DNA of 64,000 nt from a virus (taxonomy: Duplodnaviria > Caudoviricetes), in the IMG/VR virus record IMGVR_UViG_3300009128_000006, positions 26,157 through 90,156 of that record; one strand, given 5' to 3'. Shown one piece after another: positions 2,899-63,183 of the stretch; position 1 is the first letter of the stretch, and every line of letters starts with the position of its first letter. Both the position numbers and the translations under genes were made by a program. The notes under the pieces are model-generated. The model was given only the letters and a program-made list of their open reading frames with translations, had not been told where the DNA came from and did not search any database.

Positions 2899-3785
2899 TG
2901 GACCTTCTTGTCCTACAGGCATTCACCAAGGCGGCTGCAGAGAGCGAGCGAAGACGTCGCATAGCTCGTAGTACAGCCATAGGAGCCGCAACAGGTGCAA
3001 GCGTCGGAATGGCGTGGCCCTTTGCGGCTATGTACTTGTCGCGAGGGCTTGGTGTACCGAGCTTCCGTCAAGTTCCTGCAACGACGCTTGCGGGTGCTGG
3101 CATTGGCCGTCTGGCGGCGACTCTAAGGAAAGAAGCGAAGCGTGACTTCCATCCCGTAAAGGTGGAGGCTCCGAAGAAGAAGAGGAAGAAGTTCCCCTTC
3201 CAAGGCTTCGTTGACTTCCAAGGTTTGAAGATCGACATCGAGAACAAGAAGGGCTCTTACAGAGAAGGCAAGTCACCCGAAGGGAAGAAGTGGCGAACCT
3301 ACATGCACTGTGCGTACGGAGAGATTCGAGGCACAGAGGGCTCGGATGGCGACAAGCTCGATGTCTATGTGGGTGATAACCACGACTCTCCGCTCGTAGT
3401 CGTCATCCACCAGCAGGATCCGAAGACCAAGAAGTACGATGAAGACAAGGTCATGATCGGCTTTGACACTGTCGCTACGGCTATCAAAGCCTACAAGCGT
3501 CAGTACGATCGTCCAGGGTTCTACCAGTCACACACTACGATGCAGATGGGCCGCTTCTGGCGATGGGTCCATGACCGTTCGAAGCACGGTAAGAAGGTGG
3601 CGAGTCGTGAGCGTAGGGGACGGATGAGTCGCGAGCTGCGCGATCCCCGTCTGTATTCAAACCTTCGAGGGGCGATGGCTCTGGAGTCTGCCAAGAAGAG
3701 GGTTGCTGCGCACAAGGGACTGGCCAAAGGTGATGGAACTATTCGCTCAGCAGTCAGGAAGGGTCTTCTACGAGAACGACGCTAA
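2898..3785 (+). CDS. Putative virion cargo protein with inorganic pyrophosphatase-like (InPase) domain
   Basis: FQGLKIDIENKKGSYREG...YGEIRGTEGSDGDKLDVYVG...YDEDKVMIGF resembles the phage polyvalent-protein InPase domain; N-terminal Gly-zipper. Confidence 0.75.
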   Translation: MDLLVLQAFTKAAAESERRRRIARSTAIGAATGASVGMAWPFAAMYLSRGLGVPSFRQVPATTLAGAGIGRLAATLRKEAKRDFHPVKVEAPKKKRKKFPFQGFVDFQGLKIDIENKKGSYREGKSPEGKKWRTYMHCAYGEIRGTEGSDGDKLDVYVGDNHDSPLVVVIHQQDPKTKKYDEDKVMIGFDTVATAIKAYKRQYDRPGFYQSHTTMQMGRFWRWVHDRSKHGKKVASRERRGRMSRELRDPRLYSNLRGAMALESAKKRVAAHKGLAKGDGTIRSAVRKGLLRERR

Positions 3786-7397: not shown

Positions 7398-8048
7398 TCA
7401 CCGCCTGAAGGCCCTACGCCCTCGACCTCCGGTCTTCGCGTCGTCTCTGCGAAGGACAGTCCGGCAAGCCTTCTGCCGGTGGAACTCGCAAGCACCGTAC
7501 TCGGCAATGGCTGCACGATGCTCCTTCGTGCCGTAGCCCATGTTTCGGTCCCAGCCGTATTGGCCCCACCGCTTGTGAGCACGGAGCATGACTTCGTCCC
7601 TTCGTAGCTTTGCGAGGATGCTGGCGGCCGCTACAAGCCAGTACTTGCTGTCTGCTCTGGGGATTGCCACTTCTGGACCCAGTCCTCCGACCTTGGTCTT
7701 CCCATCTGTGATCAGGAGCATGTCTGGTTGTAGGGACTCTACAGCCGCAAGGACTGCCCTTTTTTGTGCTTCGTGTAGCGCTCTTCCATGTCCCAGCTCA
7801 TTGATGTCACGAACGGAGGCAAGGCCAAATCCGACCTCTCCTTCATTCTCCACCAAATAGGAGATCAGAGATGGTTCCAGTCGCTCTCTCTCCGGCCGAG
7901 TGGTCTTCTTTGAGTCCCTCACTTCCGCAATAGGCCAGAAGGTTGTCAACTGGTTGAACGGAATCTCCAGAGTCATCGCGACGGCCGTGACGCAGAATGG
8001 CCCTGCGAGGGCCCCGGTGCCGACCTCGTCCAGCCCAACGTAAATCAC
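7398..8048 (-). CDS. rnhB: Ribonuclease HII
   Basis: GLDEVGTGALAGP, DSKK, TDG, VAAASILAK, GYGT...H motifs. Confidence 0.93.
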   Translation of the reverse strand: MIYVGLDEVGTGALAGPFCVTAVAMTLEIPFNQLTTFWPIAEVRDSKKTTRPERERLEPSLISYLVENEGEVGFGLASVRDINELGHGRALHEAQKRAVLAAVESLQPDMLLITDGKTKVGGLGPEVAIPRADSKYWLVAAASILAKLRRDEVMLRAHKRWGQYGWDRNMGYGTKEHRAAIAEYGACEFHRQKACRTVLRRDDAKTGGRGRRAFRR

Positions 8049-8394: not shown

Positions 8395-9112
8395 GGAGGG
8401 CGAAGGGTCGCCGCTTCTTCTTTTGTAGGGTGTAGCCCGCAGAGCTTCCCAGGGGGAATGCAGAGAAGAGGTCAGCGACGGTGTTCACCATCTTGGGGAG
8501 AGCGATGGAGAACTCCCGCTTCCGGATCAGGATGTCATCGTGCCTCGGCGGGTAGACGAATGCCTTGACCGCCTCGTATGCTATCTTGCCGCCCTTCTTG
8601 ACAGGCAACCGGATGATGATGTGTGGCATCATCCACACGTCACCCTCTCGGCCGAAGTCGAGACCGACGCCCCATCCCACTACGCGACACCGGGCCTTGT
8701 CCACGGTGATGGGCGGACGCCGCGGGGCCGGAACGAGCGGGGAGCTCCACACTCCGTCATAGGGCAGGACCTGGCCCCGCTCCATGACCTGCGGCTTCGC
8801 CGGGTCCGGATCGTAGATGTTGAGCTCGGACCCGTTGATCGGGACGCGCTCGAGGATTTCCTGGATGCGAGCGAGATCATCTTCATCGGACCCGGGAGCC
8901 CACGACTCGCCCACGATGGACGAGTAGAAGTTGATGTCGTTGCCCAGGAAGTCCATCCGGAGGAGGCGGTGTTCTGGGATGGTGACCTCTTCGCCTCCTT
9001 TGGTGGTGGTGAGTTCTTCGGGCTGGTAGAGGACTTCCAGCCCGATGCCTGCGACGAGCGAAAGTCGTCGGCGGGGAGTTTGCATGTTGGGTGTCTCCAG
9101 ACCCGGCACCAT
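8345..9112 (-). CDS. Hypothetical protein
   Basis: Long ORF with codon bias; CATAAG promoter motif upstream at 9140-9145. Confidence 0.6.
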   Translation of the reverse strand: MVPGLETPNMQTPRRRLSLVAGIGLEVLYQPEELTTTKGGEEVTIPEHRLLRMDFLGNDINFYSSIVGESWAPGSDEDDLARIQEILERVPINGSELNIYDPDPAKPQVMERGQVLPYDGVWSSPLVPAPRRPPITVDKARCRVVGWGVGLDFGREGDVWMMPHIIIRLPVKKGGKIAYEAVKAFVYPPRHDDILIRKREFSIALPKMVNTVADLFSAFPLGSSAGYTLQKKKRRPFALLDPVEQSGRTQREART

Positions 9113-9156
9113 GGATTAGGTGTTTACCGGGCTATTCTCCTTATGGCAGGGAAAGG

Positions 9157-12100
9157 ATGGGCATTTACGACGAGGATCCTGACGTTCTGGAGTACTCCAT
9201 TGAAGGGTGGAACTCCCTTGAGTACCGGGAGCCGTGGGATCACGAACCACCGATTCCTGCCGTAGAGGATTGGGAGGTAGAGCGACACTTGCGGGAGCAG
9301 AGGCTCCGCTACGCCCTCACCCCGTCGCAGTTCACGGAAGAGACTGTGCTCATGCCCAACGCGAAGACGCGGGCATTGGAGGCGTTTTCCTTCGCAGATC
9401 GTCCTTACCTGAGGAAGGTCTACAATACGCAGTCCAATCGTGTCCTTCTCATGGCCGGACGGCAGGTGGAGAAGTGTGTTCATGAAGATGAAGTAGTAGT
9501 CGACTCTTTCGGCAAGCCGACCCCTATCAAAGACCTGTTGGTCGGCGATATACTTGTGTGCTTGGCTACCGAGGAAACGTCCCCGAATGTTGAGCGAGGG
9601 TCGGGATCTCGGATGACCACGTCAAAGATTACGTGGAAGTCTCGCAAGCGTAAGAAGCCTTGCCGCGAGATCCGGACGAGACAGGGCCATCGCTCTCGTA
9701 TGGCTACGACACATCCTGTTCGGGTGTGGAACGGGTGGAAGGCTGCTGGAGATCTCGAAATAGGAGATCGAATCGCAGTGGTTCGTAGGGCAGGGGTGTT
9801 CAGCAGCTGCGATTACGACGTGTCTTCCTCTCGGGTACGGCTCACCGCCTACATGATTGGAGATGGCGGGTGCAACCCCAAAGACGTGACCTTCACGAAC
9901 GAGACCTTTGAGGTCCTTGACGATTTCGACGATGCTCTTGTTGATGAAGGGATGTCGTACACCTTCTCACCCAAGAAGGATTCAAACACGACCTGCTTCC
10001 GTCTCCCTCGCTATCGAGCAGAGAAGCTCCGTGGATGGCTGGAAGAGGATGGTCTTTTGGGGACGGACTCCTACTCGAAGTTCCTTCCTGATTGGGTATT
10101 TCGTCTTTCGCGAGAGCAGACGTCTCTGTTCCTGAACAGGCTTTGGTCTACAGACGGGCACGTCAAGTGCAACACCGACACGAAGTGGTCCATCGAGTAC
10201 TGCTCTATGTCGGAGAGGCTGGTCAGGCAGGTTCAGGCATTGCTGTGGAAGCTTGGCATCCCTTCCAGGATCAGAGAGAACTGGCCTTCGATCTATAAGA
10301 AGCGCGGTGAGAAGGTTCTTGCTTATATCCTCCGTATCGAGACTCAAGAAGGTGTACGTTCGTTCGTTCGTGACATCGGTGCGCTTGGAAAGATCGAGCG
10401 GCAAGAGCTTGACCCCTGGGAGACCAACAACAATCGAGACACGTTGCCGTTGGAGGTGAACGAGTTCATACGGGAGATCTACGATGAGGTCTCACCGAAG
10501 AAGGGAGACCGAACCCTTCAGTCCGCAGGACTTCGCCGTAGCCCTAAGTACTGCCTGACCCGGAAGAAGCTGCTCGCGTATGTCGAGTTTTTCGAAGGAG
10601 ACCCTCGATACTCACCCTCGAAAGTTCGGCTCCTGAAGGAGCACGTGAGTTCTGACATTTACTGGGACGAGGTGGAGTCTATCAACGAGATGGGGGAGCA
10701 GTGGTGCTACGACCTGACGGTTGATCGTCATCACAACTTCGTCGCAGGCGGGATTGTCACGCACAACAGCACCTCTCTCGGTAATCGGATGCTGGCTCTA
10801 TGCTGCCTCATCCCGCATTTCCGTGCACTGTACGTCTCCCCGTCTTCAACACAGACCAAGGAGTTCTCGAACCGGCGGTTGCGTGAAGTCTTGATGACCT
10901 CGCCGCGACTGAGGACGTGGTTCCCGCAGCATCTCACGGACAATGTCTTTGAGAAGCGAGCCATCAACCGGAGTGGAATCACACTCCGGTATGCGTTCCT
11001 CAACGCAGATCGCTGCCGGGGACTCTCTGCAGATAGTGTCATCCTCGACGAGTTCCAGGATCTCCTTCTCGACACTATTCCGGTCATCGAGGAGGCTGCG
11101 TCCCACTCCGCCTTCAAGTACTTCATCTACGCAGGAACTCCGAAGTCGCTCGACAACCCGATCGAGCACTACTGGTCCACCTTCTCGACTCGCAACGAAT
11201 GGGCAGTCCCCTGTGAGCGGCACGGCACTCCTAAGGTTCCGGGCTCCTGGCACTGGAACATCCTGGGTGAGAGGAACATCTCCAAGGCCGGACCGGTCTG
11301 TGACCGCTGCGGCGGTCCCATCTTCCCCAACCATCCGAAAGCACAATGGGTCCGTACCGGTAACCCCGACCCCAACCTCACGGTCTTTGAGGGTTTCCGC
11401 ATCCCGCAGCTCATGGTCCCCTGGATCAGCTGGAAGGAGCTGTGGACCAAGTACACGGACTACCCACGTGCACAGTTCTTTAACGAGTGCCTGGGCCAGT
11501 CCTTCGATTCAGGACAGCGCCCTCTCACTCAGGACGACATCAGGCAAAACTGTGATTCCTCAATCACCCTCACTCCCGAAGGGGTGGCCGACATCCGTCG
11601 ACGGATGGCGGGGGTTCAGCTCTATGGCGGCATCGACTGGGGCCAGGGCTCGACGAACTCGTACACGGTGTTCTTCGTAGGCGGGTACCTCAACAACAAG
11701 TTCACCATCTTCTTCTGCCATCGCTTCGTTGGAGCGGAATCCGAACCGCGCACCCAGCTCAAGAAGATCTGCAGGATCATCGAGACCTTCAACCTTGCCC
11801 GCGTCTGTGTTGACCATGGTGGAGGCTTCTGGCCAAACGGTGAGCTTCTTCGTCGCTATGGCTCCAATCGCATCGTACGGGTGCAGTACCTCACGCCGAA
11901 TGTCTTCATGCGTTGGGATGAGGCTCTTGGGCGGTACATCATCCACCGCTCCGAAGTCATGTCGGCGATGTTCAATGCCATCAAGCGTGGCACCGTAGTC
12001 CGCTTCCCCGCATGGAAGTACTTCAAGACTCCATTCGCCAAAGACTTCCTGTCCATCTTCTCTGAGTACAGCGAGAAGATGCACATGACGCAGTACAAGA

Positions 12101-12240
12101 AGTCGGCCAACAACACCGACGACTCCTTCCATGCGTTCCTCTACTGCTTCCTCTCCTCGATGATTGACATTCCACGTCCTGATGTCTTCATCCCCTCGCA
12201 GGCTGTAGACCGTATGCTTGAGGCTCGTGAAGAATACTGA
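9157..12240 (+). CDS. terL: Terminase large subunit (lambda gpA-like) with intein
   Basis: Walker A GRQVEK|ST split by intein, Walker B VILDEFQD, coupling motif AGTPK, nuclease GIDWG and DDSFHA. Confidence 0.9.
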   Translation: MGIYDEDPDVLEYSIEGWNSLEYREPWDHEPPIPAVEDWEVERHLREQRLRYALTPSQFTEETVLMPNAKTRALEAFSFADRPYLRKVYNTQSNRVLLMAGRQVEKCVHEDEVVVDSFGKPTPIKDLLVGDILVCLATEETSPNVERGSGSRMTTSKITWKSRKRKKPCREIRTRQGHRSRMATTHPVRVWNGWKAAGDLEIGDRIAVVRRAGVFSSCDYDVSSSRVRLTAYMIGDGGCNPKDVTFTNETFEVLDDFDDALVDEGMSYTFSPKKDSNTTCFRLPRYRAEKLRGWLEEDGLLGTDSYSKFLPDWVFRLSREQTSLFLNRLWSTDGHVKCNTDTKWSIEYCSMSERLVRQVQALLWKLGIPSRIRENWPSIYKKRGEKVLAYILRIETQEGVRSFVRDIGALGKIERQELDPWETNNNRDTLPLEVNEFIREIYDEVSPKKGDRTLQSAGLRRSPKYCLTRKKLLAYVEFFEGDPRYSPSKVRLLKEHVSSDIYWDEVESINEMGEQWCYDLTVDRHHNFVAGGIVTHNSTSLGNRMLALCCLIPHFRALYVSPSSTQTKEFSNRRLREVLMTSPRLRTWFPQHLTDNVFEKRAINRSGITLRYAFLNADRCRGLSADSVILDEFQDLLLDTIPVIEEAASHSAFKYFIYAGTPKSLDNPIEHYWSTFSTRNEWAVPCERHGTPKVPGSWHWNILGERNISKAGPVCDRCGGPIFPNHPKAQWVRTGNPDPNLTVFEGFRIPQLMVPWISWKELWTKYTDYPRAQFFNECLGQSFDSGQRPLTQDDIRQNCDSSITLTPEGVADIRRRMAGVQLYGGIDWGQGSTNSYTVFFVGGYLNNKFTIFFCHRFVGAESEPRTQLKKICRIIETFNLARVCVDHGGGFWPNGELLRRYGSNRIVRVQYLTPNVFMRWDEALGRYIIHRSEVMSAMFNAIKRGTVVRFPAWKYFKTPFAKDFLSIFSEYSEKMHMTQYKKSANNTDDSFHAFLYCFLSSMIDIPRPDVFIPSQAVDRMLEAREEY
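9475..10767 (+). mobile_element. Intein with LAGLIDADG homing endonuclease (431 aa) in TerL Walker A
   Basis: Starts CVHEDE, block B TTHP, LAGLIDADG-like AYMIGDG and LWSTDG, ends YDLTV...HNFVAGGIVTHN followed by Ser. Confidence 0.95.
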
Positions 12241-57870: not shown

Positions 57871-58005
57871 GTGAAGAGTACGAAGGTCTGGAGGTATCGG
57901 AACTGTCCTGCCCCCGTGGAGAGGCTCAACTACGTCGTGAGTGCTCTTTTTGTGGGTATCTTCGTCTTTATGCTTGTCATCTCTACAGCGGCGTGGTTAG
58001 TGTAG
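57871..58005 (+). CDS. Small single-TM protein
   Basis: GGAG RBS, hydrophobic C-terminus. Confidence 0.35.
   Translation: MKSTKVWRYRNCPAPVERLNYVVSALFVGIFVFMLVISTAAWLV
57974..58003 (+). promoter_or_regulatory. Sigma70-like promoter for Ser/Tyr leader
   Basis: TTGTCA-N18-TAGTGT, 6 nt before ATG 58010. Confidence 0.6.
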
Positions 58006-58009
58006 GGAC

Positions 58010-58078
58010 ATGACTCGCAAGTGTGCCATCTCCTCTTCAAGTAGCTCGTATTTTACGGGCCCGGAGGGGTGTGCCTGA
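58010..58078 (+). CDS. Ser/Tyr attenuator leader peptide MTRKCAISSSSSSYFTGPEGCA
   Basis: TCC TCT TCA AGT AGC TCG TAT at 58031-58051. Confidence 0.8.
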   Translation: MTRKCAISSSSSSYFTGPEGCA

Positions 58079-58105
58079 TGCGTTAGAACCATCATCGGTC
58101 CACGA

Positions 58106-58150
58106 AAGAACCCCTCCCCGGCCCATTGTCGCGGAGGGGTTCTTGCATTC
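58106..58150 (+). terminator. Attenuator terminator hairpin before tRNA-Tyr/Ser block
   Basis: AAGAACCCCTCC / GGAGGGGTTCTT; 5' arm also complementary to GGAGGGGT at 58063-58070. Confidence 0.8.
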
Positions 58151-58236
58151 GGGGATCGAGTACAGTAGCTCGGGACTACTGGCGGGCCTGTAAAGTCCGT
58201 GCCTTAGGGATAGTGGTTCGAATCCACCGATCCCCA
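58151..58236 (+). tRNA. tRNA-Tyr(GTA)
   Basis: Acceptor GGGGATC/GATCCCC, anticodon loop CTGTAAA, GGTTCGAATCC. Confidence 0.9.
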
Positions 58237-58257: not shown

Positions 58258-58340
58258 GGAGAGGTAACTCTGCGAGGCAGGGCTACGCTTGGAAAGCGTA
58301 TGGCGGTTTCGGCCGCGCGGGGCGGTACCGCACTTCTCCT
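58258..58340 (+). tRNA. tRNA-Ser(GGA), non-canonical T loop
   Basis: TACGC-TTGGAAA-GCGTA, long variable arm, acceptor GGAGAGG/CTTCTCC. Confidence 0.75.
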
Positions 58341-58351
58341 CTTCTTCACAT

Positions 58352-58427
58352 GGTCGTGTAGCTCAGTCTGGTAGAGCAGAGGGGTCGCCCCCAGAGACGC
58401 AGGTTCAAATCCTCGCTCGTTCCACCA
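58352..58427 (+). pseudogene. Degenerate tRNA (anticodon unresolvable)
   Basis: TAGCTCAGTCTGGTAGAGC D arm, GGTTCAAATCC T arm, CCA end; damaged anticodon and acceptor stems. Confidence 0.6.
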
Positions 58428-58433
58428 CATCTT

Positions 58434-58516
58434 GGAGAATGAACCGTCTGAGTGGACGGCCTCGTTTCGAAAACGAGCGGTGCGGCAAGCATTCGGGGCG
58501 GGACCGACGTTCTCCT
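58434..58516 (+). tRNA. tRNA-Ser(CGA), non-canonical T loop
   Basis: CTCGT-TTCGAAA-ACGAG, long variable arm, acceptor GGAGAAT/GTTCTCC. Confidence 0.75.
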
Positions 58517-58525
58517 CTACTTCTT

Positions 58526-58616
58526 GGAGAGTGAAATAGGTGCGGTTTCCCTTAGCGCGGTTGCTACCTGCGTCGGGTCATGTGGCCCGCTGGTTCGACT
58601 CCAGCACTCTCCTCCA
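58526..58616 (+). tRNA. tRNA-Ser(GCT)
   Basis: CGCGG-TTGCTAC-CTGCG, long variable arm, GGTTCGACTCC, CCA. Confidence 0.85.
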
Positions 58617-58629
58617 TCTCTACCACTTA

Positions 58630-58716
58630 GGAGAGGCCCGCGCAGAGGGGCGCATCCGGCTTTGAATACCGGCGGCAGGGTCACACCTGAGGTTTCGAGT
58701 ACCTGTCTCTCCTCCA
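58630..58716 (+). tRNA. tRNA-Ser(TGA)
   Basis: Anticodon loop TTTGAAT in CCGG stem, long variable arm, CCA. Confidence 0.75.
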
Positions 58717-58977
58717 CTTGTCCCAGATGCTCGCCGTGAGCTTCGAGGCATGGAACCTGTACCAGCCCTTCTTCCGGCCCTGAACCACAACCAGCAGACG
58801 ATACTTCGTGCTCCTCTTCCGATACCCAGGCTGCCGCATCACTGCGGCAGTAAGGAATCCCCGTTTTAGGGCCCATTCATGAAGGTTTAGCACCACGTAC
58901 CAGCTCTTTTTGCATGGGTACTCAACCCGCCCCTTCCGAGGGAAGTGGGCGATGGCGCGTAGCAGATCGGCTTCCAT
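58681..58977 (-). CDS. Hypothetical basic protein antisense within tRNA array
   Basis: Lower-GC ORF with TCATAAG box at 59058 upstream. Confidence 0.4.
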   Translation of the reverse strand: MEADLLRAIAHFPRKGRVEYPCKKSWYVVLNLHEWALKRGFLTAAVMRQPGYRKRSTKYRLLVVVQGRKKGWYRFHASKLTASIWDKWRRDRYSKPQV

Positions 58978-59062
58978 TCCAGCTGTGAGCATGAGAGCCC
59001 CTATGAAAAGCAACAGCATGAAGTCTTCGTAGCGATCATCACTACGCAGACGATTTTCTTAT

Positions 59063-59135
59063 GACGACAATCACAGGAGTGGACCTGCTGGGTCTGCAAA
59101 ACCCGGGGAGTGGAGTTCAAGTCTCCCTGTCGTCT
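59063..59135 (+). tRNA. tRNA-Cys(GCA)
   Basis: Acceptor GACGACA/TGTCGTC, loop CTGCAAA, U73. Confidence 0.8.
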
Positions 59136-59154
59136 TCTCTGTTACACTGTGAAT

Positions 59155-59364
59155 GTGAGTACTCAGCTGATCATGACGGCGATCCTACTGGTCCTGGCCA
59201 GTTTCGGCTTCGCCGTGTCCGGGTACTCCCTCGATGACAGCGCCTTGTCCCAGAAAGGCTTCGCTGTCATCGCGACTGATCGCCGGCCCGGCGATCAGGT
59301 GACCGCCAACGAGCGGAATGCGACTGCGCCACAGACTCGTCCCCTGCAGGAAGGCTTCCCGTAG
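59155..59364 (+). CDS. Leader-like peptide with N-terminal signal/TM segment
   Basis: TG-T-TACACT extended -10, 6 nt, GTG; ends QEGFP before hairpin. Confidence 0.5.
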   Translation: MSTQLIMTAILLVLASFGFAVSGYSLDDSALSQKGFAVIATDRRPGDQVTANERNATAPQTRPLQEGFP

Positions 59365-59387
59365 GGGACTTCTCAGTTCTGGGAACC

Positions 59388-59428
59388 CGAGAGGCCTCCG
59401 TCACCAAAGCGGGAGGCCTCTCGCGTTT
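59388..59428 (+). terminator. Terminator hairpin of attenuator-like architecture
   Basis: CGAGAGGCCTCC / GGAGGCCTCTCG followed by CGTTT. Confidence 0.75.
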
Positions 59429-59513
59429 GAGCTCTCGTTATGCTTCACACATGGGCGGTATTCGGCGAGACCCAGGACAGGAGCGCCCCGATGGTCCGGC
59501 GTATACTCCTCGT

Positions 59514-59813
59514 ATGGCCCCGAAGCGCCTACTACTGCACGCCGTGTTCATCCTCATCCAGGATGACGACGTTCGGAGGACCACTGCGGCCATCTTCTTC
59601 TTCTACCTGGGCCTGATGGTGATCTTCCTGGCCCTTGTCCCCATACCAGAAGAGAGCGCGAAGACCATTCATCTCATCATCGGCGGCCTGGTCGGCGGAG
59701 GCATCGGCCCTGCGATTAGAGCCCTACTGGACAAGGGAGACGGACAGAAGCCGAGCCTGGAAGCTCACTTCTCTGGCGAAGGGAACGGGAGCACAGCACC
59801 TCGAGGCCCTTGA
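59514..59813 (+). CDS. Two-TM membrane protein (holin-like)
   Basis: TATACT 6 nt before ATG; two hydrophobic helices around PIPEE. Confidence 0.5.
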   Translation: MAPKRLLLHAVFILIQDDDVRRTTAAIFFFYLGLMVIFLALVPIPEESAKTIHLIIGGLVGGGIGPAIRALLDKGDGQKPSLEAHFSGEGNGSTAPRGP

Positions 59814-59968
59814 ACTCCGAGACTCCTTCGAAGCTCTCGCACTTCCTTGTCTGTACGCGGCCAAAACGAGCCGTCCGGCATGAGCTTGTACTTGCGATGG
59901 AAGGCCCTCCACCGAGGCAGTAGGTTGAAGAACGGGAACACGTTCGAGAGTGGGATCACCTTGCTCAT
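59765..59968 (-). CDS. Hypothetical small protein
   Basis: GGAG RBS. Confidence 0.4.
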   Translation of the reverse strand: MSKVIPLSNVFPFFNLLPRWRAFHRKYKLMPDGSFWPRTDKEVRELRRSLGVQGPRGAVLPFPSPEK

Positions 59969-59972
59969 ATGC

Positions 59973-60001
59973 TTGACTCCCTCTCCACAGGGTACTACAC
60001 C
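59973..60001 (+). promoter_or_regulatory. Sigma70-like promoter for Leu leader
   Basis: TTGACT-N17-TACACC, 6 nt before ATG 60008. Confidence 0.65.
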
Positions 60002-60007
60002 TAAGAC

Positions 60008-60073
60008 ATGACCTTCGTGATGCGCGCGCTATCCTCCTTGCTTCTTCTGAAGCCCGGGGAGGGGTGCGTGTAG
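60008..60073 (+). CDS. Leu attenuator leader peptide MTFVMRALSSLLLLKPGEGCV
   Basis: CTA, then TTG CTT CTT CTG at 60038-60049. Confidence 0.8.
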   Translation: MTFVMRALSSLLLLKPGEGCV

Positions 60074-60096
60074 GGTCATCAACCTACGACACCGTC

Positions 60097-60137
60097 GGAA
60101 GCCTCCCCAGCGAAAGCTCGGGAGGTTTCTTGCGTTT
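60097..60137 (+). terminator. Attenuator terminator hairpin before tRNA-Leu block
   Basis: GGAAGCCTCCC..AGC-GAAA-GCT..GGGAGGTTTCT then TGCGTTT; CCTCCCC also pairs with GGGGAGG at 60056-60062. Confidence 0.8.
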
Positions 60138-60139
60138 AT

Positions 60140-60224
60140 GGGGAGGTAGCCGAAATGGATAGGCACCAGGTTCAGGCCCTGGGGGGCTCAGTCTCCGATG
60201 CGGGTTCGAGTCCCGTTCTCCCTA
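60140..60224 (+). tRNA. tRNA-Leu(CAG)
   Basis: CCAGG-TTCAGGC-CCTGG, long variable arm, GGTTCGAGTCC. Confidence 0.88.
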
Positions 60225-60232
60225 CTCTTTTT

Positions 60233-60316
60233 GCGGAAGTGGCGAAACAGGCAGCCGCGCGGGCTTGAGGGGCTCGTGGTCTTCGGACCGTGGGGGTTCA
60301 AATCCCCCCTTCCGTA
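60233..60316 (+). tRNA. tRNA-Leu(GAG)
   Basis: CGGGC-TTGAGGG-GCTCG, variable arm with TTCG loop, A73. Confidence 0.92.
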
Positions 60317-60323
60317 CTACTTT

Positions 60324-60451
60324 GAGGAGATGGGCAAACGGTAAAGCCACCAGTCGGTATGGGCTGGGGACATCCCGAAACCGCCGTCGTCCGTCCGGAA
60401 GGGAGGCGGAGCACGGTGGACGGATTGGAGGTTCGACTCCTCCTCTCCTCA
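60324..60451 (+). ncRNA. tRNA-like RNA with oversized variable region and aberrant anticodon loop
   Basis: Perfect acceptor GAGGAGA/TCTCCTC, D arm, GGAGG-TTCGACT-CCTCC T arm; 128 nt. Confidence 0.6.
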
Positions 60452-60458
60452 TTATTCT

Positions 60459-60533
60459 GCCCCGGTACGCCAGTTGGTAGTAGCGACCGCACTTAAAATG
60501 CGGTGGATGGAGGTTCGAATCCTCTTCGGGGTA
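60459..60533 (+). tRNA. tRNA-Leu(TAA) with short variable loop
   Basis: CCGCA-CTTAAAA-TGCGG, GGTTCGAATCC. Confidence 0.8.
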
Positions 60534-60537
60534 TCGC

Positions 60538-60566
60538 TTGACCTTCACGTGTTGAAGGACTACTAC
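60538..60566 (+). promoter_or_regulatory. Sigma70-like promoter for Gly/Thr leader
   Basis: TTGACC-N17-TACTAC, 6 nt before ATG 60573. Confidence 0.55.
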
Positions 60567-60572
60567 TTCTAC

Positions 60573-60683
60573 ATGCGTTCCTTCCTGGCCATCACCGGTA
60601 CAACCGGTACCACCGTCCTCCCGCCTGCGTTCGGCGGTCGAGGACTCATGCCAGGACGAACGCAGCTCATCAGCACAGTCTGA
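60573..60683 (+). CDS. Gly/Thr-rich leader peptide MRSFLAITGTTGTTVLPPAFGGRGLMPGRTQLISTV
   Basis: Same promoter geometry as other leaders; precedes tRNA-Gly genes. Confidence 0.6.
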   Translation: MRSFLAITGTTGTTVLPPAFGGRGLMPGRTQLISTV

Positions 60684-60719
60684 TCTGTTCGTAGCCCGCT
60701 TGTCCTGGCTCATACCTAA

Positions 60720-60774
60720 GCGGTAGTAGCTCAGGCACTTAGAGCGTCGGCTTGCCAAGTCGAAGGCCCCGGGT
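60720..60774 (+). pseudogene. 5' part of split tRNA-Gly(GCC)
   Basis: GCGGTAG acceptor strand, loop TTGCCAA, stops after T-stem CCGGGT. Confidence 0.85.
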
Positions 60775-60779
60775 GTTTT

Positions 60780-60851
60780 GCGTACATAGCTCAACGGTAG
60801 AGCATTTGTCTGCCAGGCAAAGGGCTGCGGGTTCGAATCCCGCTGTGCGCT
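60780..60851 (+). tRNA. tRNA-Gly(GCC)
   Basis: TTTGT-CTGCCAG-GCAAA, GGGTTCGAATCCC, U73. Confidence 0.88.
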
Positions 60852-60893
60852 TCACCTCTTGTGCGGTAGGGGATACTTGGTTATCTACCGCAT

Positions 60894-61415
60894 ATGGAAG
60901 AACAGAGAATATGCAGGTCGTGCGGAGATACAAAGCCCGTCTCAGAGATGATTCCCATCAAAAGACGAGGAAAGGTTTACTATAGGAGGCAGTGCCGTTC
61001 GTGTGAGAGCAAACGATGCGCTGTACACCACGCGACGCCAAAATCTAAGGCGGCTTACAAGGCCCGTTCCGACATGCTCAAGGTAGAGCGCGCTGCTGGT
61101 CTGAATGTCGAGCGTTGGATTTACGAAGATGCTCGACGTTCAGACCGAAAGCGCGATCTGGAGAACGACCTGACGAAGGCATTTATCCGAGAGCAGATCG
61201 AGAAAGGGTGTAGCTATTGTGGAGAGGAGAGTATCCGTATGACTCTTGACCGGATCGATAACAGCATCGGGCACTTACAATCAAACTGCGTGCCTGCCTG
61301 TATTCGCTGCAACTGTACCAGAAGGCACATGCCTTACGAGGCATGGCTGATTGTGGCCCCGGCCATGCGGGAGGCGCGGTTGGCAGGTCTCTTTGGGGAT
61401 TGGACTGGAAGATAG
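60894..61415 (+). CDS. HNH-family endonuclease
   Basis: CSYCG...TLDRIDNSIGHLQSNCVPACIRCN. Confidence 0.85.
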   Translation: MEEQRICRSCGDTKPVSEMIPIKRRGKVYYRRQCRSCESKRCAVHHATPKSKAAYKARSDMLKVERAAGLNVERWIYEDARRSDRKRDLENDLTKAFIREQIEKGCSYCGEESIRMTLDRIDNSIGHLQSNCVPACIRCNCTRRHMPYEAWLIVAPAMREARLAGLFGDWTGR

Positions 61416-61432
61416 TCCCGGCTACCGCACCA
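61414..61432 (+). pseudogene. 3' part of split tRNA-Gly
   Basis: AGT-CCCGG-CTACCGC-ACCA complements T stem and acceptor of 60720-60774. Confidence 0.85.
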
Positions 61433-61436
61433 TTTT

Positions 61437-61496
61437 GGCGTCATAGCTCAGTCCTGATAAGGCTGAGGTCGTTGGTTCAACTCCAACCGGTATCAC
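61437..61496 (+). pseudogene. Deleted/chimeric tRNA with Ile(GAT) 3' half
   Basis: TAGCTCAGT joined directly to CCTGATAAGG; acceptor strands do not pair. Confidence 0.6.
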
Positions 61497-61503
61497 TCTC
61501 TAC

Positions 61504-61578
61504 ACTGCCGTGGATCAATGGTAGATCGCCAGGCCCTCACCCTGGAGACCGCGGGTTCGAACCCCGTCGGCAGTACCA
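61504..61578 (+). tRNA. tRNA-Glu(CTC)
   Basis: CCAGG-CCCTCAC-CCTGG, acceptor ACTGCCG/CGGCAGT, ACCA. Confidence 0.8.
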
Positions 61579-61583
61579 CCTAC

Positions 61584-61671
61584 AACGCCGAATGCAAAGT
61601 GGATCGCGCGGCTGGGTTTTCATTCCAGTGCCCGTAAGGGGTAGGGGGTTCGAGTCCCCTCGGCGTTACCA
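61584..61671 (+). tRNA. tRNA-Glu(TTC) with long variable arm
   Basis: CTGGG-TTTTCAT-TCCAG, acceptor AACGCCG/CGGCGTT, ACCA. Confidence 0.65.
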
Positions 61672-61680
61672 ATCCTATAT

Positions 61681-61730
61681 GTTGGCCGTAGCTCAGTCCG
61701 GTAAGAGCGCCAGGTTGTGGCCCTGGAGGT
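61681..61730 (+). pseudogene. 5' part of split tRNA-His(GTG)
   Basis: CCAGG-TTGTGGC-CCTGG, no T arm follows. Confidence 0.8.
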
Positions 61731-61763
61731 TTAAGAGAAATCTCGACAAGCACCCGTGAATAT

Positions 61764-61835
61764 GGTACCTTTGGTGTAGCGGTAGCACGCCAGATTGTGG
61801 TTCTGGAGGCTCCGGTTCAAACCCGGGATGGTACC
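61764..61835 (+). tRNA. tRNA-His(GTG)
   Basis: CCAGA-TTGTGGT-TCTGG; G-1:C73. Confidence 0.85.
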
Positions 61836-61841
61836 CTTTTC

Positions 61842-62453
61842 ATGCCCCAGAAGAAGTCTGTTCCTAAGGTCTGTGAGGTGTGCGGAGACGTATTTCTTGT
61901 GCGGCCGGTGGACGCGAGACGGCATCCCTGCCGGTTCTGTAGTCGCTCCTGTAAAGGCAAGGCCCAGCCTCCTATAAGCAGAGGATTGACCGGAGAGGAT
62001 AATCCGAACTGGAAAGGGGGGCTGACCTTCAGCAAGTCTACAGGGTACTGGAGAGTCTTACAGCCCACACATCAGCGAGCAGACCATCTGGGGTACGTCA
62101 AGCGAGCGGACTTGGTACTGGAAGAGAAACTTGGGCGGCCTTTACTTCCCAATGAGATTGCGCACCACGTCAACGAAGATCGGGCAGATGACTCCCCAGA
62201 GAACCTGGAGTGCATGGACTATGGCGAGCACCGGCTGATGCACATCCAGCAGAGGGCAGAGCGTGCTCGGCAGTTAAACCCTCCGAAGCCGAAACAACCA
62301 GATCACCCCAGCAACCGCCGCTATACGTGGCCCTCGGATTCTGAGCTCCTCGAGATGAGGAAGACGATGAGCCTTCGACAGATTGCGGCCATAGTCGGCT
62401 GCGGCCATAAGACCGTAGATAGACGTCTCTCTCGTATTTCCTCCTCGAGATAA
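61842..62453 (+). CDS. HNH endonuclease with N-terminal Zn ribbon and C-terminal HTH
   Basis: CEVCG..FCSRSC, NPNWKGG, HHVNEDRADDSPENL. Confidence 0.88.
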   Translation: MPQKKSVPKVCEVCGDVFLVRPVDARRHPCRFCSRSCKGKAQPPISRGLTGEDNPNWKGGLTFSKSTGYWRVLQPTHQRADHLGYVKRADLVLEEKLGRPLLPNEIAHHVNEDRADDSPENLECMDYGEHRLMHIQQRAERARQLNPPKPKQPDHPSNRRYTWPSDSELLEMRKTMSLRQIAAIVGCGHKTVDRRLSRISSSR

Positions 62454-62477
62454 TCCCGTCGCTCACCTACCTTTCTC

Positions 62478-62515
62478 GGGAGAGTGGTGTAACTGGCAGC
62501 ACGTGAGGCTCTTCA
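62478..62515 (+). pseudogene. 5' half of split tRNA (identity uncertain)
   Basis: GGGAGAG-TG-GTGTAACTGGCAGCAC-G-TGAGG, ends in anticodon loop. Confidence 0.75.
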
Positions 62516-62516
62516 T

Positions 62517-62590
62517 GGACGGGTAGCTCAGCAGGCCAGAGCGTCCGGCTTTGGACCGGAAGGTGTGCGGTTCGAGTCCGCCCCCGTCTT
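62517..62590 (+). tRNA. tRNA-Gln(TTG)
   Basis: TCCGG-CTTTGGA-CCGGA, GGTTCGAGTCC. Confidence 0.85.
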
Positions 62591-62637
62591 CTCAAACCAT
62601 GCAGCCGTGTTATAGCCATACAAAAGGGTATGGTTCG

Positions 62638-63183
62638 ATGTCTGAGTCTCAAAGGAAGAGAGACGTAGTTCGCCGGCTAAGAACGGAAGGCAAGAGCTAC
62701 AAGGAGATTGCCGAAGCAACAGGGCTCACCAAGTCGACTATTGCATACCATGCAAGAAGATTGGGAATACCAGCCCAACCCCAGCGCCGTGATTACCCCT
62801 GGAATGAAATCCAGAAGATGTATGAGAGTGGGGCAACTTATCGGGAGTGCGCGCAGAAGTACGGGTTCTCCCGTACTGCATGGGACACGGCAAAACGTCG
62901 AGGGCTTATACACCCACGGGAGAAGAGGAGGCCTGTTGAACTCTACTTCTCTTGGAGGAAGAAGCTGTCGTCAACGGCAAAGAAGCGCCTGTTCGATGAG
63001 GGTATGTTGAAAAAGGAGTGCTCTATATGCGGACAAGGACCTGTATGGGCTGGGAAGCCTCTCGTTATACAGATTGATCACATCAATGGAAACCCCGCGG
63101 ACAATCGTCGTGAGAATCTACGGCCGGTGTGCCCGAACTGTCATTCTCAGACCCCGACGTTTTGCGGGCGAAACATCACCTAA
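62638..63183 (+). CDS. HTH-HNH endonuclease
   Basis: GKSYKEIAEATGLTKSTIAYH; CSICG...QIDHINGNPADNRRENLRPVCPNCHSQT. Confidence 0.9.
   Translation: MSESQRKRDVVRRLRTEGKSYKEIAEATGLTKSTIAYHARRLGIPAQPQRRDYPWNEIQKMYESGATYRECAQKYGFSRTAWDTAKRRGLIHPREKRRPVELYFSWRKKLSSTAKKRLFDEGMLKKECSICGQGPVWAGKPLVIQIDHINGNPADNRRENLRPVCPNCHSQTPTFCGRNIT

What the first reader, a model, noticed from the sequence alone, without database searches (positions are those of the whole stretch)
59973..60533. Leucine leader attenuator in front of the tRNA-Leu block
Seen: TTGACT-N17-TACACC, ATG at 60008, Leu codons CTA/TTG/CTT/CTT/CTG, stop at 60071. GGGGAGG..GGTGCGTGTAGG (60056-60074) can pair with CCTACGACACC..CCTCCCC (60082-60108). 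That pairing competes with the GAAA-capped hairpin 60097-60130, which has a TGCGTTT tail. Leu(CAG), Leu(GAG) and Leu(TAA) follow. This is an independent second instance of the same design, resembling leu/ilv leaders.
Basis: partly seen in the sequence, partly recalled or inferred. Interest (0 to 1): 0.88.

Follow-up and report, generated by a model that had tools for sequence, protein, structure and literature searches.

The report
Leader-peptide attenuator before phage tRNA-Leu genes
A marine phage seems to switch on its own leucine tRNA genes only when ribosomes stall on leucine codons in a tiny upstream reading frame, and the same trick turns up in well-known Caulobacter phages, where nobody appears to have described it.

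Summary
At 59973-60139 (+) lie a -35/-10-like pair, then a 21-codon ORF starting 6 nt after the -10 (MTFVMRALSSLLLLKPGEGCV). Three mutually exclusive pairings follow: 1:2 at -39.0, 2:3 at -26.4 and 3:4 at -26.9 kcal/mol. The last is a hairpin with a U-rich tail that ends 1 nt before tRNA-Leu(CAG). The run TTG CTT CTT CTG is read by the three downstream tRNAs Leu(UAA), Leu(GAG) and Leu(CAG).

A paralogous module at 57974-58150 carries six Ser codons, all six synonyms once each, then a Tyr codon. It precedes a tRNA-Tyr and four tRNA-Ser whose anticodons cover all six codons. The one relative found keeps "each Ser codon once" with the order permuted.

The same architecture exists in Caulobacter/Brevundimonas jumbo phages (12 of 12 loci examined). 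There, leaders built only from the amino acids of the downstream tRNA block precede an annotated terminator.

Best reading (0.65): a ribosome-mediated transcription attenuator that senses decoding capacity and controls phage tRNA genes.

Caveats:
- No RNA data.
- No homologue of the Leu leader itself.
- The 2:3 complementarity is not beyond composition (p about 0.1).
- The -10 is weak.

No description was found in ten literature searches.

The parts
59973..59978 (+). -35-like hexamer TTGACT (within conserved TATGCTTGAC)
   Evidence: It is shared with the Ser module and the third copy. The gap from the -35 end to the ATG is 29 nt, against 30 nt in 12 of 12 Dolichocephalovirinae leaders.
59996..60001 (+). 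-10-like hexamer TACACC (weak); a start 7 nt on would be the A of the ATG, giving a leaderless mRNA
   Evidence: It was not reported by the consensus scan. The transcription start is inferred, not shown.
60008..60073 (+). Leader ORF, 21 codons plus TAG: MTFVMRALSSLLLLKPGEGCV
   Evidence: There is no Shine-Dalgarno sequence upstream.
60038..60049 (+). Regulatory run TTG CTT CTT CTG (plus CTA at 60029-60031)
   Evidence: The three codon types are cognate to Leu(UAA), Leu(GAG) and Leu(CAG) downstream. Four of the five Leu codons are minor ones, and CTC (43% usage) is absent.
60021..60048 (+). Segment 1 (contains the regulatory codons); pairs with segment 2
   Evidence: hairpin 60008-60079 at -39.0 kcal/mol.
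60050..60079 (+). Segment 2 (GGGGAGGGGTG..GTAGGG); contains the stop codon; pairs with segment 1 or segment 3
   Evidence: It resembles segment 4 (GGGAGG).
60082..60108 (+). Segment 3 (CCTAC..CACC..CCTCCCC); forms the antiterminator with segment 2 or the terminator with segment 4
   Evidence: 2:3 at -26.4 to -27.4 kcal/mol; 199 of 2000 shuffles are as good.
60093..60139 (+). Terminator-like hairpin (3:4, GAAA loop) with tail TTTCTTGCGTTTAT
   Evidence: -26.9 kcal/mol; 11 of 2000 shuffles are as good. The tails resemble those after long ORFs of this phage.
60140..60225 (+). tRNA-Leu(CAG)
60233..60317 (+). tRNA-Leu(GAG)
60323..60441 (+). About 119-nt tRNA-like element of unknown identity (acceptor and T arm present, oversized extra arm, odd anticodon loop)
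   Evidence: It is called neither by ARAGORN nor by Rfam.
60458..60535 (+). tRNA-Leu(TAA)
57974..58150 (+). Paralogous Ser/Tyr module. It has a -35 TTGTCA, a -10-like TAGTGT and the ORF 58010-58078 (MTRKCAISSSSSSYFTGPEGCA). Its Ser codons are TCC TCT TCA AGT AGC TCG, followed by TAT. It ends with a terminator-like hairpin at about 58106-58144 and the tail TTCTTGCATTC.
   Evidence: Its orthologue in L035 is shown.

Best explanation
The element is a ribosome-mediated (leader-peptide) transcription attenuator that controls a block of phage tRNA-Leu genes.

**Proposed mechanism**
1. A promoter at 59973-60001 starts a leaderless mRNA at the ATG at 60008.
2. If no ribosome loads, or a ribosome runs through to the TAG inside segment 2, segments 3 and 4 form the terminator. 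Transcription then stops at the foot of tRNA-Leu(CAG).
3. If the ribosome stalls on the TTG CTT CTT CTG run because Leu-tRNA able to read these codons is scarce, segment 2 is free.
4. Segment 2 then pairs with segment 3 as it emerges, the terminator cannot form, and RNA polymerase reads into Leu(CAG), Leu(GAG) and Leu(UAA).

**What it senses**
The product is tRNA, not an amino-acid pathway. The circuit is therefore read as a homeostat of decoding capacity. Phage tRNA is made when host or phage tRNA-Leu is limiting and shut off once it suffices.

**Shown versus inferred**
Shown: sequence anatomy, energies, codon-anticodon match, paralogy, and an analogous conserved system in other phages. Inferred: the transcription start, translation of the ORF, termination, and the stall response.
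For: **1. Anatomy.** The ORF starts 6 nt after the -10-like hexamer. Energies are 1:2 -39.0, 2:3 -26.4 and 3:4 -26.9 kcal/mol. The stop codon lies inside segment 2, and the first Leu codon of the run lies 18 nt before it. The whole leader has z = -5.64. The terminator duplex is matched by 11 of 2000 shuffles. No room is left for another promoter, because the tail ends at 60139 and the tRNA starts at 60140.

**2. Codons.** The four-codon run uses exactly the codon types read by the 3 of 3 downstream tRNA-Leu. Four of the five Leu codons are minor (P = 0.011), and the major CTC is absent.

**3. Paralogue.** The Ser module shares the promoter, the segment 2 motif, CCTCCCC and the tail. Its six Ser codons are all different. 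That holds for 1 of 7 Ser runs of 6 or more in the genome, with P = 0.007 under phage usage. They are followed by TAT. Downstream lie a Tyr(GUA)-like tRNA and Ser tRNAs with anticodons GGA, CGA, GCU and UGA, which together read all six codons. The joint expectation of both runs is 9e-5.

**4. Relative.** In L035 (endolysin 66% identical) the Ser leader is kept. Three third-position changes permute TCC/TCT/TCA so that each Ser codon still occurs once in the run.

**5. Need for a promoter.** The upstream ORF 59765-59968 fits coding statistics better on the minus strand.

**6. Analogous class.** In 12 of 12 Dolichocephalovirinae loci, TTGAC[AG] is followed after exactly 30 nt by an ATG and a 31-32 codon ORF. 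Its 14-15 residue core uses only Y, R, Q, N, V, I and F. Then come a GGCCCGCC..GGCGGGCC terminator with a T-tract (annotated as a terminator in phiCbK and Colossus) and tRNAs for Tyr, Phe, Val, Ile, Gln, Asn and Arg. A second leader (phiCbK gp083, Kikimora, Bajun) has 34, 34 and 32 consecutive residues from P, T, K, L, H, A, S before a Pro/Thr/Lys/Leu/His/Ala/Ser block. P is about 1e-14 and 6e-8.

**7. Structure in that class.** The consensus fold gives 1:2 plus a terminator, and 7 of 30 pairs show compensatory change. The 2:3 helix is 97.7% paired.
Against: - No RNA evidence at all, and no RNA run holds the stretch.
- No homologue of the Leu leader was found anywhere. The only relative is cut before segment 2 of the Ser leader.
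- The 2:3 and 1:2 complementarities are not beyond composition: 199 and 169 of 2000 shuffles for Leu, 216 and 169 for Ser.
- In full-length equilibrium folds the terminator persists at 22 of 22 simulated ribosome positions. Antitermination would therefore have to be kinetic.
- The -10 hexamers are poor, and the consensus scan reported neither the promoter nor the terminator. The U-tract is interrupted.
- The Ser -35/-10 lie inside a conserved 44-codon ORF, so that 'promoter' could be coding sequence.
- CTA has no cognate phage tRNA.
- Covering all three anticodon groups with four Leu codons has P = 0.23.
- The third paralogous promoter+ORF (60538-60683, Thr/Gly-rich) has no tRNA-Thr downstream and no clear terminator.
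- In 10 of 12 Dolichocephalovirinae loci, one or two leader amino acids (Y, N or F) lack a tRNA called at ARAGORN -ps.
Confidence: 0.65

Rival explanations
1. Promoter plus a constitutive, leaky promoter-proximal terminator (or the end of a tiny separate gene). It damps a strong promoter before the tRNAs. The short ORF and its codons play no sensing role.
For: The alternative pairings are not beyond composition. The equilibrium fold always keeps the terminator. The third paralogous promoter+ORF does not match its tRNAs.
Against: Leu and Ser runs cognate to the following tRNAs have a joint expectation of 9e-5. All six Ser codons occur once each, and this is kept in L035. In the Caulobacter/Brevundimonas phages, leader composition is confined to the amino acids of the block.
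Confidence: 0.12
2. The leader is translated and senses cognate codons, but the output is not termination. Ribosome position could instead control processing or stability of the precursor (RNase P/E access to the first tRNA), or the hairpin could be a processing signal.
For: The U-tract is imperfect and the hairpin abuts the mature 5' end of the tRNA. The 5' strand of tRNA-Leu(CAG), GGGGAGG, could itself pair with CCTCCCC.
Against: Tails of the same kind follow long ORFs of this phage. The analogous elements carry canonical T-tract terminators predicted by their annotators. CCTCCCC..GGAGG..TTCTTGC hairpins end genes in other viral contigs.
Confidence: 0.13
3. The short ORFs encode functional micro-proteins, and their position before tRNAs is incidental.
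For: Some copies are annotated as hypothetical proteins (phiCbK gp083, RBC57, Kabachok).
Against: Composition, not residue order, is conserved among phiCbK, Kikimora and Bajun leader A. In L035 the changes are synonymous permutations. The invariant nucleotides lie in the segment that mimics the terminator arm.
Confidence: 0.05
4. Nothing functional: chance ORF and chance hairpins in a GC-rich spacer.
For: Only computational evidence exists, and the promoter match is weak.
Against: z = -5.64. The element has a paralogue. There is nucleotide conservation in L035. See also the statistics.
Confidence: 0.05

Closest known systems
Leader-peptide attenuators of amino-acid operons (leu, trp, his, thr, ilv; Rfam leader families, names recalled)
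   Same: It has a short ORF with tandem cognate codons, four segments with 1:2, 2:3 and 3:4 alternatives, a stop codon in segment 2 and a bias to minor Leu codons. In passages of PMC1183508 the leu leader is described as the paradigm of rare-codon choice.
   Different: It regulates tRNA genes, not biosynthetic enzymes. It is carried by a phage and appears leaderless. There is no sequence or covariance-model similarity.
pheST attenuator with the pheM leader peptide (recalled, no call)
   Same: A leader peptide with cognate codons controls a component of the translation apparatus for the same amino acid.
   Different: The target there is the synthetase, so the signal is charging. Here the target is the tRNA itself.
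Leaderless polycysteine short ORFs acting as attenuators in mycobacteria (10.1101/834739; search listing and start of abstract only)
   Same: A leaderless short ORF with a run of one amino acid controls downstream genes.
   Different: Those control cysteine-related operons in a bacterium. Their mechanism was not read here.
T-box riboswitches (recalled)
   Same: A cis-acting terminator/antiterminator switch that reads the state of one tRNA species.
   Different: A T-box binds the tRNA directly and needs no translation. No T-box hit was found.
Leaders before the tRNA blocks of phiCbK-like Caulobacter and Brevundimonas phages
   Same: The order is promoter, leaderless ORF 29-30 nt after the -35, regulatory codons cognate to the following tRNAs, a segment 2 that mimics the terminator's 3' arm, a terminator, and then the tRNA block.
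   Different: There is no sequence homology to the window. Those leaders list 7 amino acids for mixed blocks, whereas the window's list one or two for near-pure blocks.

Membership tests
Ribosome-mediated (leader-peptide) transcription attenuators | Short ORF in the 5' leader with a usable start | tested here: met
   ATG 60008, 21 codons. The start lies 6 nt after the -10-like hexamer and there is no SD, so translation would be leaderless. Translation itself is not testable here.
Ribosome-mediated (leader-peptide) transcription attenuators | Tandem regulatory codons cognate to the regulated function | tested here: met
   TTG CTT CTT CTG before Leu(UAA), Leu(GAG) and Leu(CAG). 0.017 such runs are expected.
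Ribosome-mediated (leader-peptide) transcription attenuators | Intrinsic terminator between the ORF and the regulated genes | tested here: inconclusive
   The hairpin is strong (-26.9 kcal/mol; 11 of 2000 shuffles as good). The U-tract is interrupted and the hairpin was not flagged by the consensus scan. Similar tails follow long ORFs of the phage.
Ribosome-mediated (leader-peptide) transcription attenuators | Antiterminator that excludes the terminator and is itself excluded by 1:2 or by a ribosome at the stop codon | tested here: inconclusive
   The geometry and energies fit. The complementarity is no better than 10% of shuffles, and the equilibrium fold keeps the terminator.
Ribosome-mediated (leader-peptide) transcription attenuators | Read-through rises when the cognate charged tRNA is scarce | not testable with these tools
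   No RNA data.
Rfam amino-acid leader families and T-box | Match to the curated covariance model | tested here: not met
   No such family appears among the hits at E <= 1 or E <= 10.
Phage tRNA-block leaders of the phiCbK type (defined here) | -35, then 29-30 nt, then an ATG; leader residues cognate to the block; segment 2 mimics the 3' arm of the terminator; terminator directly before the block | tested here: met
   Window. Reference set. This is an analogy only, since blastn found no similarity.

The most novel reading that the evidence does not exclude
Phages of unrelated lineages place 'checklist' leader peptides in front of their tRNA blocks. Each leader spells the codons served by the tRNAs behind it. 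A shortfall of any one isoacceptor, from codon-usage mismatch, host shut-off or tRNA-cleaving defence systems, then stalls the ribosome and switches on exactly that block. This would be the first transcriptional control of tRNA genes by their own decoding capacity. It would also be an inducible arm of phage counter-defence against tRNA depletion.
Probability: 0.45. Interest if true: 0.92.

Novelty: new variant of a known kind. Interest (0 to 1): 0.86.

Why it matters
Bacterial tRNA genes are usually thought to be regulated globally, through growth rate and the stringent response, and phage tRNAs are treated as simple constitutive supplements. A leader-peptide switch in front of tRNA genes would mean that supply of individual tRNA families is measured by the ribosome and corrected gene block by gene block.

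It bears on an open question: why phages carry tRNAs at all. The candidates are codon-usage matching, replacement of degraded host tRNAs, and escape from tRNA-cleaving defences. The abstract of PMC12409363 (listing) states that some viruses encode tRNAs to counter such systems.

The question becomes directly testable because the same design is present in phiCbK, a laboratory phage of Caulobacter crescentus.

It also gives annotators a rule for dozens of 'hypothetical proteins' of 30-45 codons in phage tRNA regions.

Tried and rejected
**Relatives of the window phage**
- blastn and tblastn against 50,697 phage records found only tRNA or domain-level hits.
- IMG/VR protein scans gave 3, 0 and 1 loci. 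None carried the leader, and the single IMG/VR record searched (G001, holding L094) had no tRNA match. The other three handles given were not held, so they were not searched.
- Four IMG/VR pattern scans were run. The first gave 31 loci, with no tRNA called downstream of any of the 31 matches. Two gave 0 loci. The fourth gave 11 loci, with no tRNA called downstream of any of the 12 matches; these are ordinary terminators.
- The genome-contig scan gave 50 loci, all matching only within the N-terminal part of the query (residues 1-133; the peptidoglycan-binding domain lies at 11-66), none beyond it.
- The metagenome scan gave 9 loci. Only L035 was informative.

**Sequencing runs**
- No RNA holder is listed.
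- Of the pieces listed, all laid over the two leaders had no other letters or gaps, so no natural variants were seen; the few differing pieces lay over tRNA sequences.

**Other steps**
- The exact look-up of ten small ORFs found only the 84/63-aa ORF at 59110-59364. ORFs with GTG or TTG starts may have been missed because of their first residue.
- A PPPP run before the tRNA-Pro genes of Kikimora was in the wrong frame and was dropped.

**Third copy rejected**
The third promoter+ORF (60538-60683) was rejected as a matching attenuator. There is no tRNA-Thr downstream, and the truncated Gly-like hairpin is not significant (z = 0.26).

**Literature**
Ten full-text searches found nothing on leader-peptide control of tRNA genes. 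Supplementary files were not seen.
Full report
**Setting**

The window is the last 64 kb of a 90,156-bp virus record with 60.3% G+C. All 10 ARAGORN tRNAs of the genome lie at window 58526-62591 on the + strand. HNH-type ORFs are interspersed among them. A large terminase is recognisable. No close cultured relative exists. The DNA occurs in marine and seawater metagenomes of two studies. The host is unknown.

**The observation**

- TTGACT at 59973, a 17-nt spacer, TACACC at 59996.
- ATG at 60008 and TAG at 60071.
- The peptide MTFVMRALSSLLLLKPGEGCV, with Leu codons CTA, TTG, CTT, CTT, CTG.

The leader RNA 60002-60139 folds at -67.4 kcal/mol, z = -5.64, with 0 of 200 shuffles as good. It forms two hairpins, 60008-60079 and 60093-60134.

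GGGGAGG pairs with CCUCCCC, GGUG with CACC, and there is an inner stem. The terminator-like hairpin is -26.9 and the 1:2 hairpin -39.0 kcal/mol.

The tail TTTCTTGCGTTTAT ends at 60139. tRNA-Leu(CAG) starts at 60140, followed by Leu(GAG) and Leu(TAA). No space is left for a promoter between the hairpin and the tRNA.

**Geometry**

The stop codon lies inside segment 2, so a ribosome that finishes the peptide masks the antiterminator strand. The first codon of the Leu run is 18 nt upstream of segment 2, so a ribosome held there leaves it free. The 5' AUG itself is sequestered in the 1:2 helix once about 72 nt are made. This is the logic of the classical trp/leu attenuators (established knowledge).

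The ATG lies 6 nt after the -10-like hexamer. A start at the usual distance would therefore give a leaderless mRNA, and there is no Shine-Dalgarno sequence.

**Paralogues in the same cluster**

A genome-wide search for TTGNCN, 16-18 nt, T[AT]NNNN, 5-8 nt, ATG/GTG gave 22 matches. Three of them lie in the tRNA cluster and open short ORFs, at 57974, 59973 and 60538.

The module at 57974-58150 aligns with the Leu module. The shared parts are TATGCTTGNC, CCCGG..GAGGGGTG, CCTCCCC and TTCTTGC(A/G)TT. It folds with z = -3.37, and its energies are 1:2 -19, 2:3 -22 to -25 and 3:4 -27.8 kcal/mol.

Its peptide is MTRKCAISSSSSSYFTGPEGCA. The six Ser codons are TCC, TCT, TCA, AGT, AGC, TCG, that is every Ser codon once, followed by TAT. 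Of the 7 Ser runs of six or more in six frames of the genome, only this one has six different codons. P = 0.007 under the phage's own usage.

Behind this module lie:
- A Tyr(GUA)-like tRNA at 58151-58236 (Rfam 13.9 bits; fold).
- Ser-type tRNAs with anticodon loops reading GGA (58260-58344) and CGA (58434-58518), both seen by folding only and both with an unusual T loop.
- Ser(GCT), called by ARAGORN.
- Ser(TGA), called by ARAGORN only at a relaxed threshold.

Together these anticodons read all six Ser codons.

In the Leu module, the run TTG CTT CTT CTG matches Leu(UAA), Leu(GAG) and Leu(CAG). CTA has no cognate phage tRNA. Four of the five Leu codons are minor ones (P = 0.011), and the major CTC (43%) is absent.

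The expected numbers of such runs in the two leaders are 0.017 and 0.0055, a product of 9e-5.

**The only relative**

A metagenome contig, L035 (1.9 kb), has an endolysin 66% identical to the window's. It carries the Ser leader up to the contig end.
- The leader is almost invariant at the nucleotide level.
- Codon 4 changes from Lys to Ser.
- Three third-position changes turn TCC TCT TCA into TCT TCA TCC, so each of the six codons still occurs once in the run. This is 2 of 27 possible outcomes.

The same alignment shows that a 44-codon membrane-type ORF (57871-58005) is conserved at the protein level and ends 4 nt before the leader ATG. The Ser -35/-10 therefore lie in coding sequence, and that leader may also be reached from upstream.

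For the Leu module, the upstream ORF 59765-59968 fits coding statistics better on the minus strand: GC1/GC2 of 0.59/0.47 against 0.40/0.55 for the plus-strand alternative. A promoter is therefore needed in the 39-nt gap.

**An analogous, conserved system elsewhere**

The tRNA-Leu similarity led to Brevundimonas phage Kikimora. I examined its tRNA region.

*Leader B.* Before the block Tyr, Phe, Val, Ile, Val, Gln, Asn, Arg, Arg lies TTGACA, then 30 nt, then an ATG. The ORF reads MMTYRQNVQNIRVVRFYRAGRSCMCDGLVGG. Its 15-residue core uses exactly the seven amino acids of the block. A canonical terminator follows.
- blastn finds this leader in 39 records of Caulobacter and Brevundimonas phages.
- In the 12 loci fetched, 12 of 12 have the 30-nt spacing, a 31-32 codon ORF (9 distinct peptides) and a 14-15 residue core confined to Y, R, Q, N, V, I, F.
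- All 12 also have the GGCCCGCC..GGCGGGCC terminator with a T-tract. The depositors annotated this as a terminator in phiCbK and Colossus.
- The set of amino acids in the core equals the set of tRNAs called at ARAGORN -ps in 2 of 12 loci. In the other 10, Y, N and/or F lack a called tRNA.
- At -ps85, which I ran on three loci only, Tyr and Phe appear in Bambus and Tyr in Colossus, but not in phiCbK.

*Leader A.* This leader precedes the Pro/Thr/Lys/Leu/His/Ala/Ser block. It has 34 (Kikimora), 34 (phiCbK gp083, after one Asn) and 32 (Bajun) consecutive residues from P, T, K, L, H, A, S. The residue order is poorly conserved.

*Statistics.* With amino-acid frequencies from 16 annotated CDS of the Kikimora locus, the chances are about 1e-14 and 6e-8. 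These are the only such runs in six frames of that 16-kb locus. One of those CDS is cut at the locus edge, so its frame may be off and the frequencies are rough.

*Structure.* The consensus fold gives a 1:2 hairpin and the terminator, and 7 of 30 pairs show compensatory change. Segment 2 (GGCGGGCC, invariant inside the ORF) equals the 3' arm of the terminator. The 11-bp 2:3 helix is paired in 97.7% of cells and has two pairs with a change on both sides. Shuffles reach this in 28-41 of 500, which is mild support because most columns never vary.

*Bearing on the window.* There is no sequence homology to the window. The architecture is the same, however, including the 29-30 nt from the -35 to the ATG.

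**Weaknesses**
- The consensus scans do not report the promoter or the hairpin.
- 2:3 and 1:2 are no better than about 10% of dinucleotide shuffles. The signal lies in the G-rich/C-rich composition and its placement, not in fine complementarity.
- At equilibrium the terminator always wins, so the switch would have to be kinetic, as in known attenuators.
- No RNA holder is listed and no variant population was found.
- The third paralogous promoter+ORF (Thr/Gly-rich, 60573-60683) is structured (z = -3.82). It has no matching tRNA-Thr and no clear terminator.

**Comparison with what is known**

It works like the leu/trp/his leaders and like the pheST leader (recalled). It is not a member of any curated Rfam family.

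Leaderless short-ORF attenuators are on record for mycobacteria (10.1101/834739; listing and start of abstract only). Codon choice in leaders is discussed in PMC1183508 (passages read).

Ten full-text searches found nothing on leader-peptide control of tRNA genes. The phiCbK genome paper has no occurrence of 'attenuat' or 'leader', and states that Rfam found no RNA elements other than tRNAs (PMC3556154, term search).

**Verdict**

It is a new variant of a known mechanism with an unprecedented target. It probably belongs to a wider, undescribed phage strategy.

Noticed in passing
window 57974-58150: Ser/Tyr leader module. It has six Ser codons, each synonym once, then TAT. It lies before a Tyr-like tRNA and four Ser tRNAs whose anticodons cover all six codons. 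It is conserved in metagenome contig L035 with the three TCN codons permuted.
   Followed up: yes
L106:13144-13390 and L106:7040-7367; L107:1192-1443 and 2957-3160; L108-L117: Caulobacter and Brevundimonas jumbo phages (phiCbK, Colossus, Rogue, Kikimora, Bajun and others) carry leader ORFs whose residues are confined to the amino acids of the following tRNA block. A terminator follows each leader. Some of these ORFs are annotated as hypothetical proteins (for example phiCbK gp083).
   Followed up: yes
window 60538-60683: Third copy of the promoter geometry (TTGACC, 17 nt, TACTAC, 6 nt, ATG). It opens a 36-codon Thr/Gly-rich ORF (ITGTTGTT) and is strongly structured (z = -3.82). It precedes a truncated Gly(GCC)-like element and tRNA-Gly(GCC). 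No tRNA-Thr was found.
   Followed up: partly
window 57871-58005: 44-codon ORF with a C-terminal hydrophobic segment. It is divergent from the endolysin gene, conserved at the protein level in L035, and ends 4 nt before the Ser leader ATG.
   Followed up: partly
window 60323-60441: About 119-nt tRNA-like element between Leu(GAG) and Leu(TAA). Acceptor and T arms are present, there is a 50-nt-plus extra arm, and the anticodon loop has 6 or 8 nt. No tool calls it.
   Followed up: partly
window 58260-58344 and 58434-58518: Two Ser-type tRNA-like genes (anticodon loops reading GGA and CGA) share an unusual T loop, GGCGGNA, in place of the usual T-loop motif. Neither ARAGORN nor Rfam calls them.
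   Followed up: partly
window 58352-58423; 60720-60779; 61688-61747; 61421-61495: Degenerate tRNA-like sequences. One has a 4-nt anticodon loop. One is a truncated Gly(GCC)-like copy. One is a His(GUG)-like copy lacking its 3' part, just before the intact tRNA-His. One is a weak tRNA (28 bits) with a GAU anticodon loop.
   Followed up: partly
window 60894-61415, 61797-62453, 62551-63183: Three ORFs sit between tRNA genes. Two have HNH endonuclease matches with helix-turn-helix domains, so they are probably homing endonucleases.
   Followed up: partly
window 59388-59432: Strong hairpin with a GCGTTTGAGC tail after the small membrane-protein ORF 59110-59364. It is a likely terminator inside the tRNA cluster.
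   Followed up: no
window 9091-12240: The large terminase ORF has 1049 codons. The terminase match covers only residues 560-1021, with a separate unknown-family match at 127-562. This suggests an insertion or fusion.
   Followed up: no
L106:7625-7697 and 7704-7790: Two unannotated tRNA-Thr-like genes in phage Kikimora. One has anticodon loop GGU and a clean cloverleaf. The other probably reads CGU. Both lie between tRNA-Pro and tRNA-Lys. The phiCbK genome paper states that no Thr or Tyr tRNAs are found in any of the phages it describes, but relaxed ARAGORN calls Thr(GGT) in phiCbK.
   Followed up: partly
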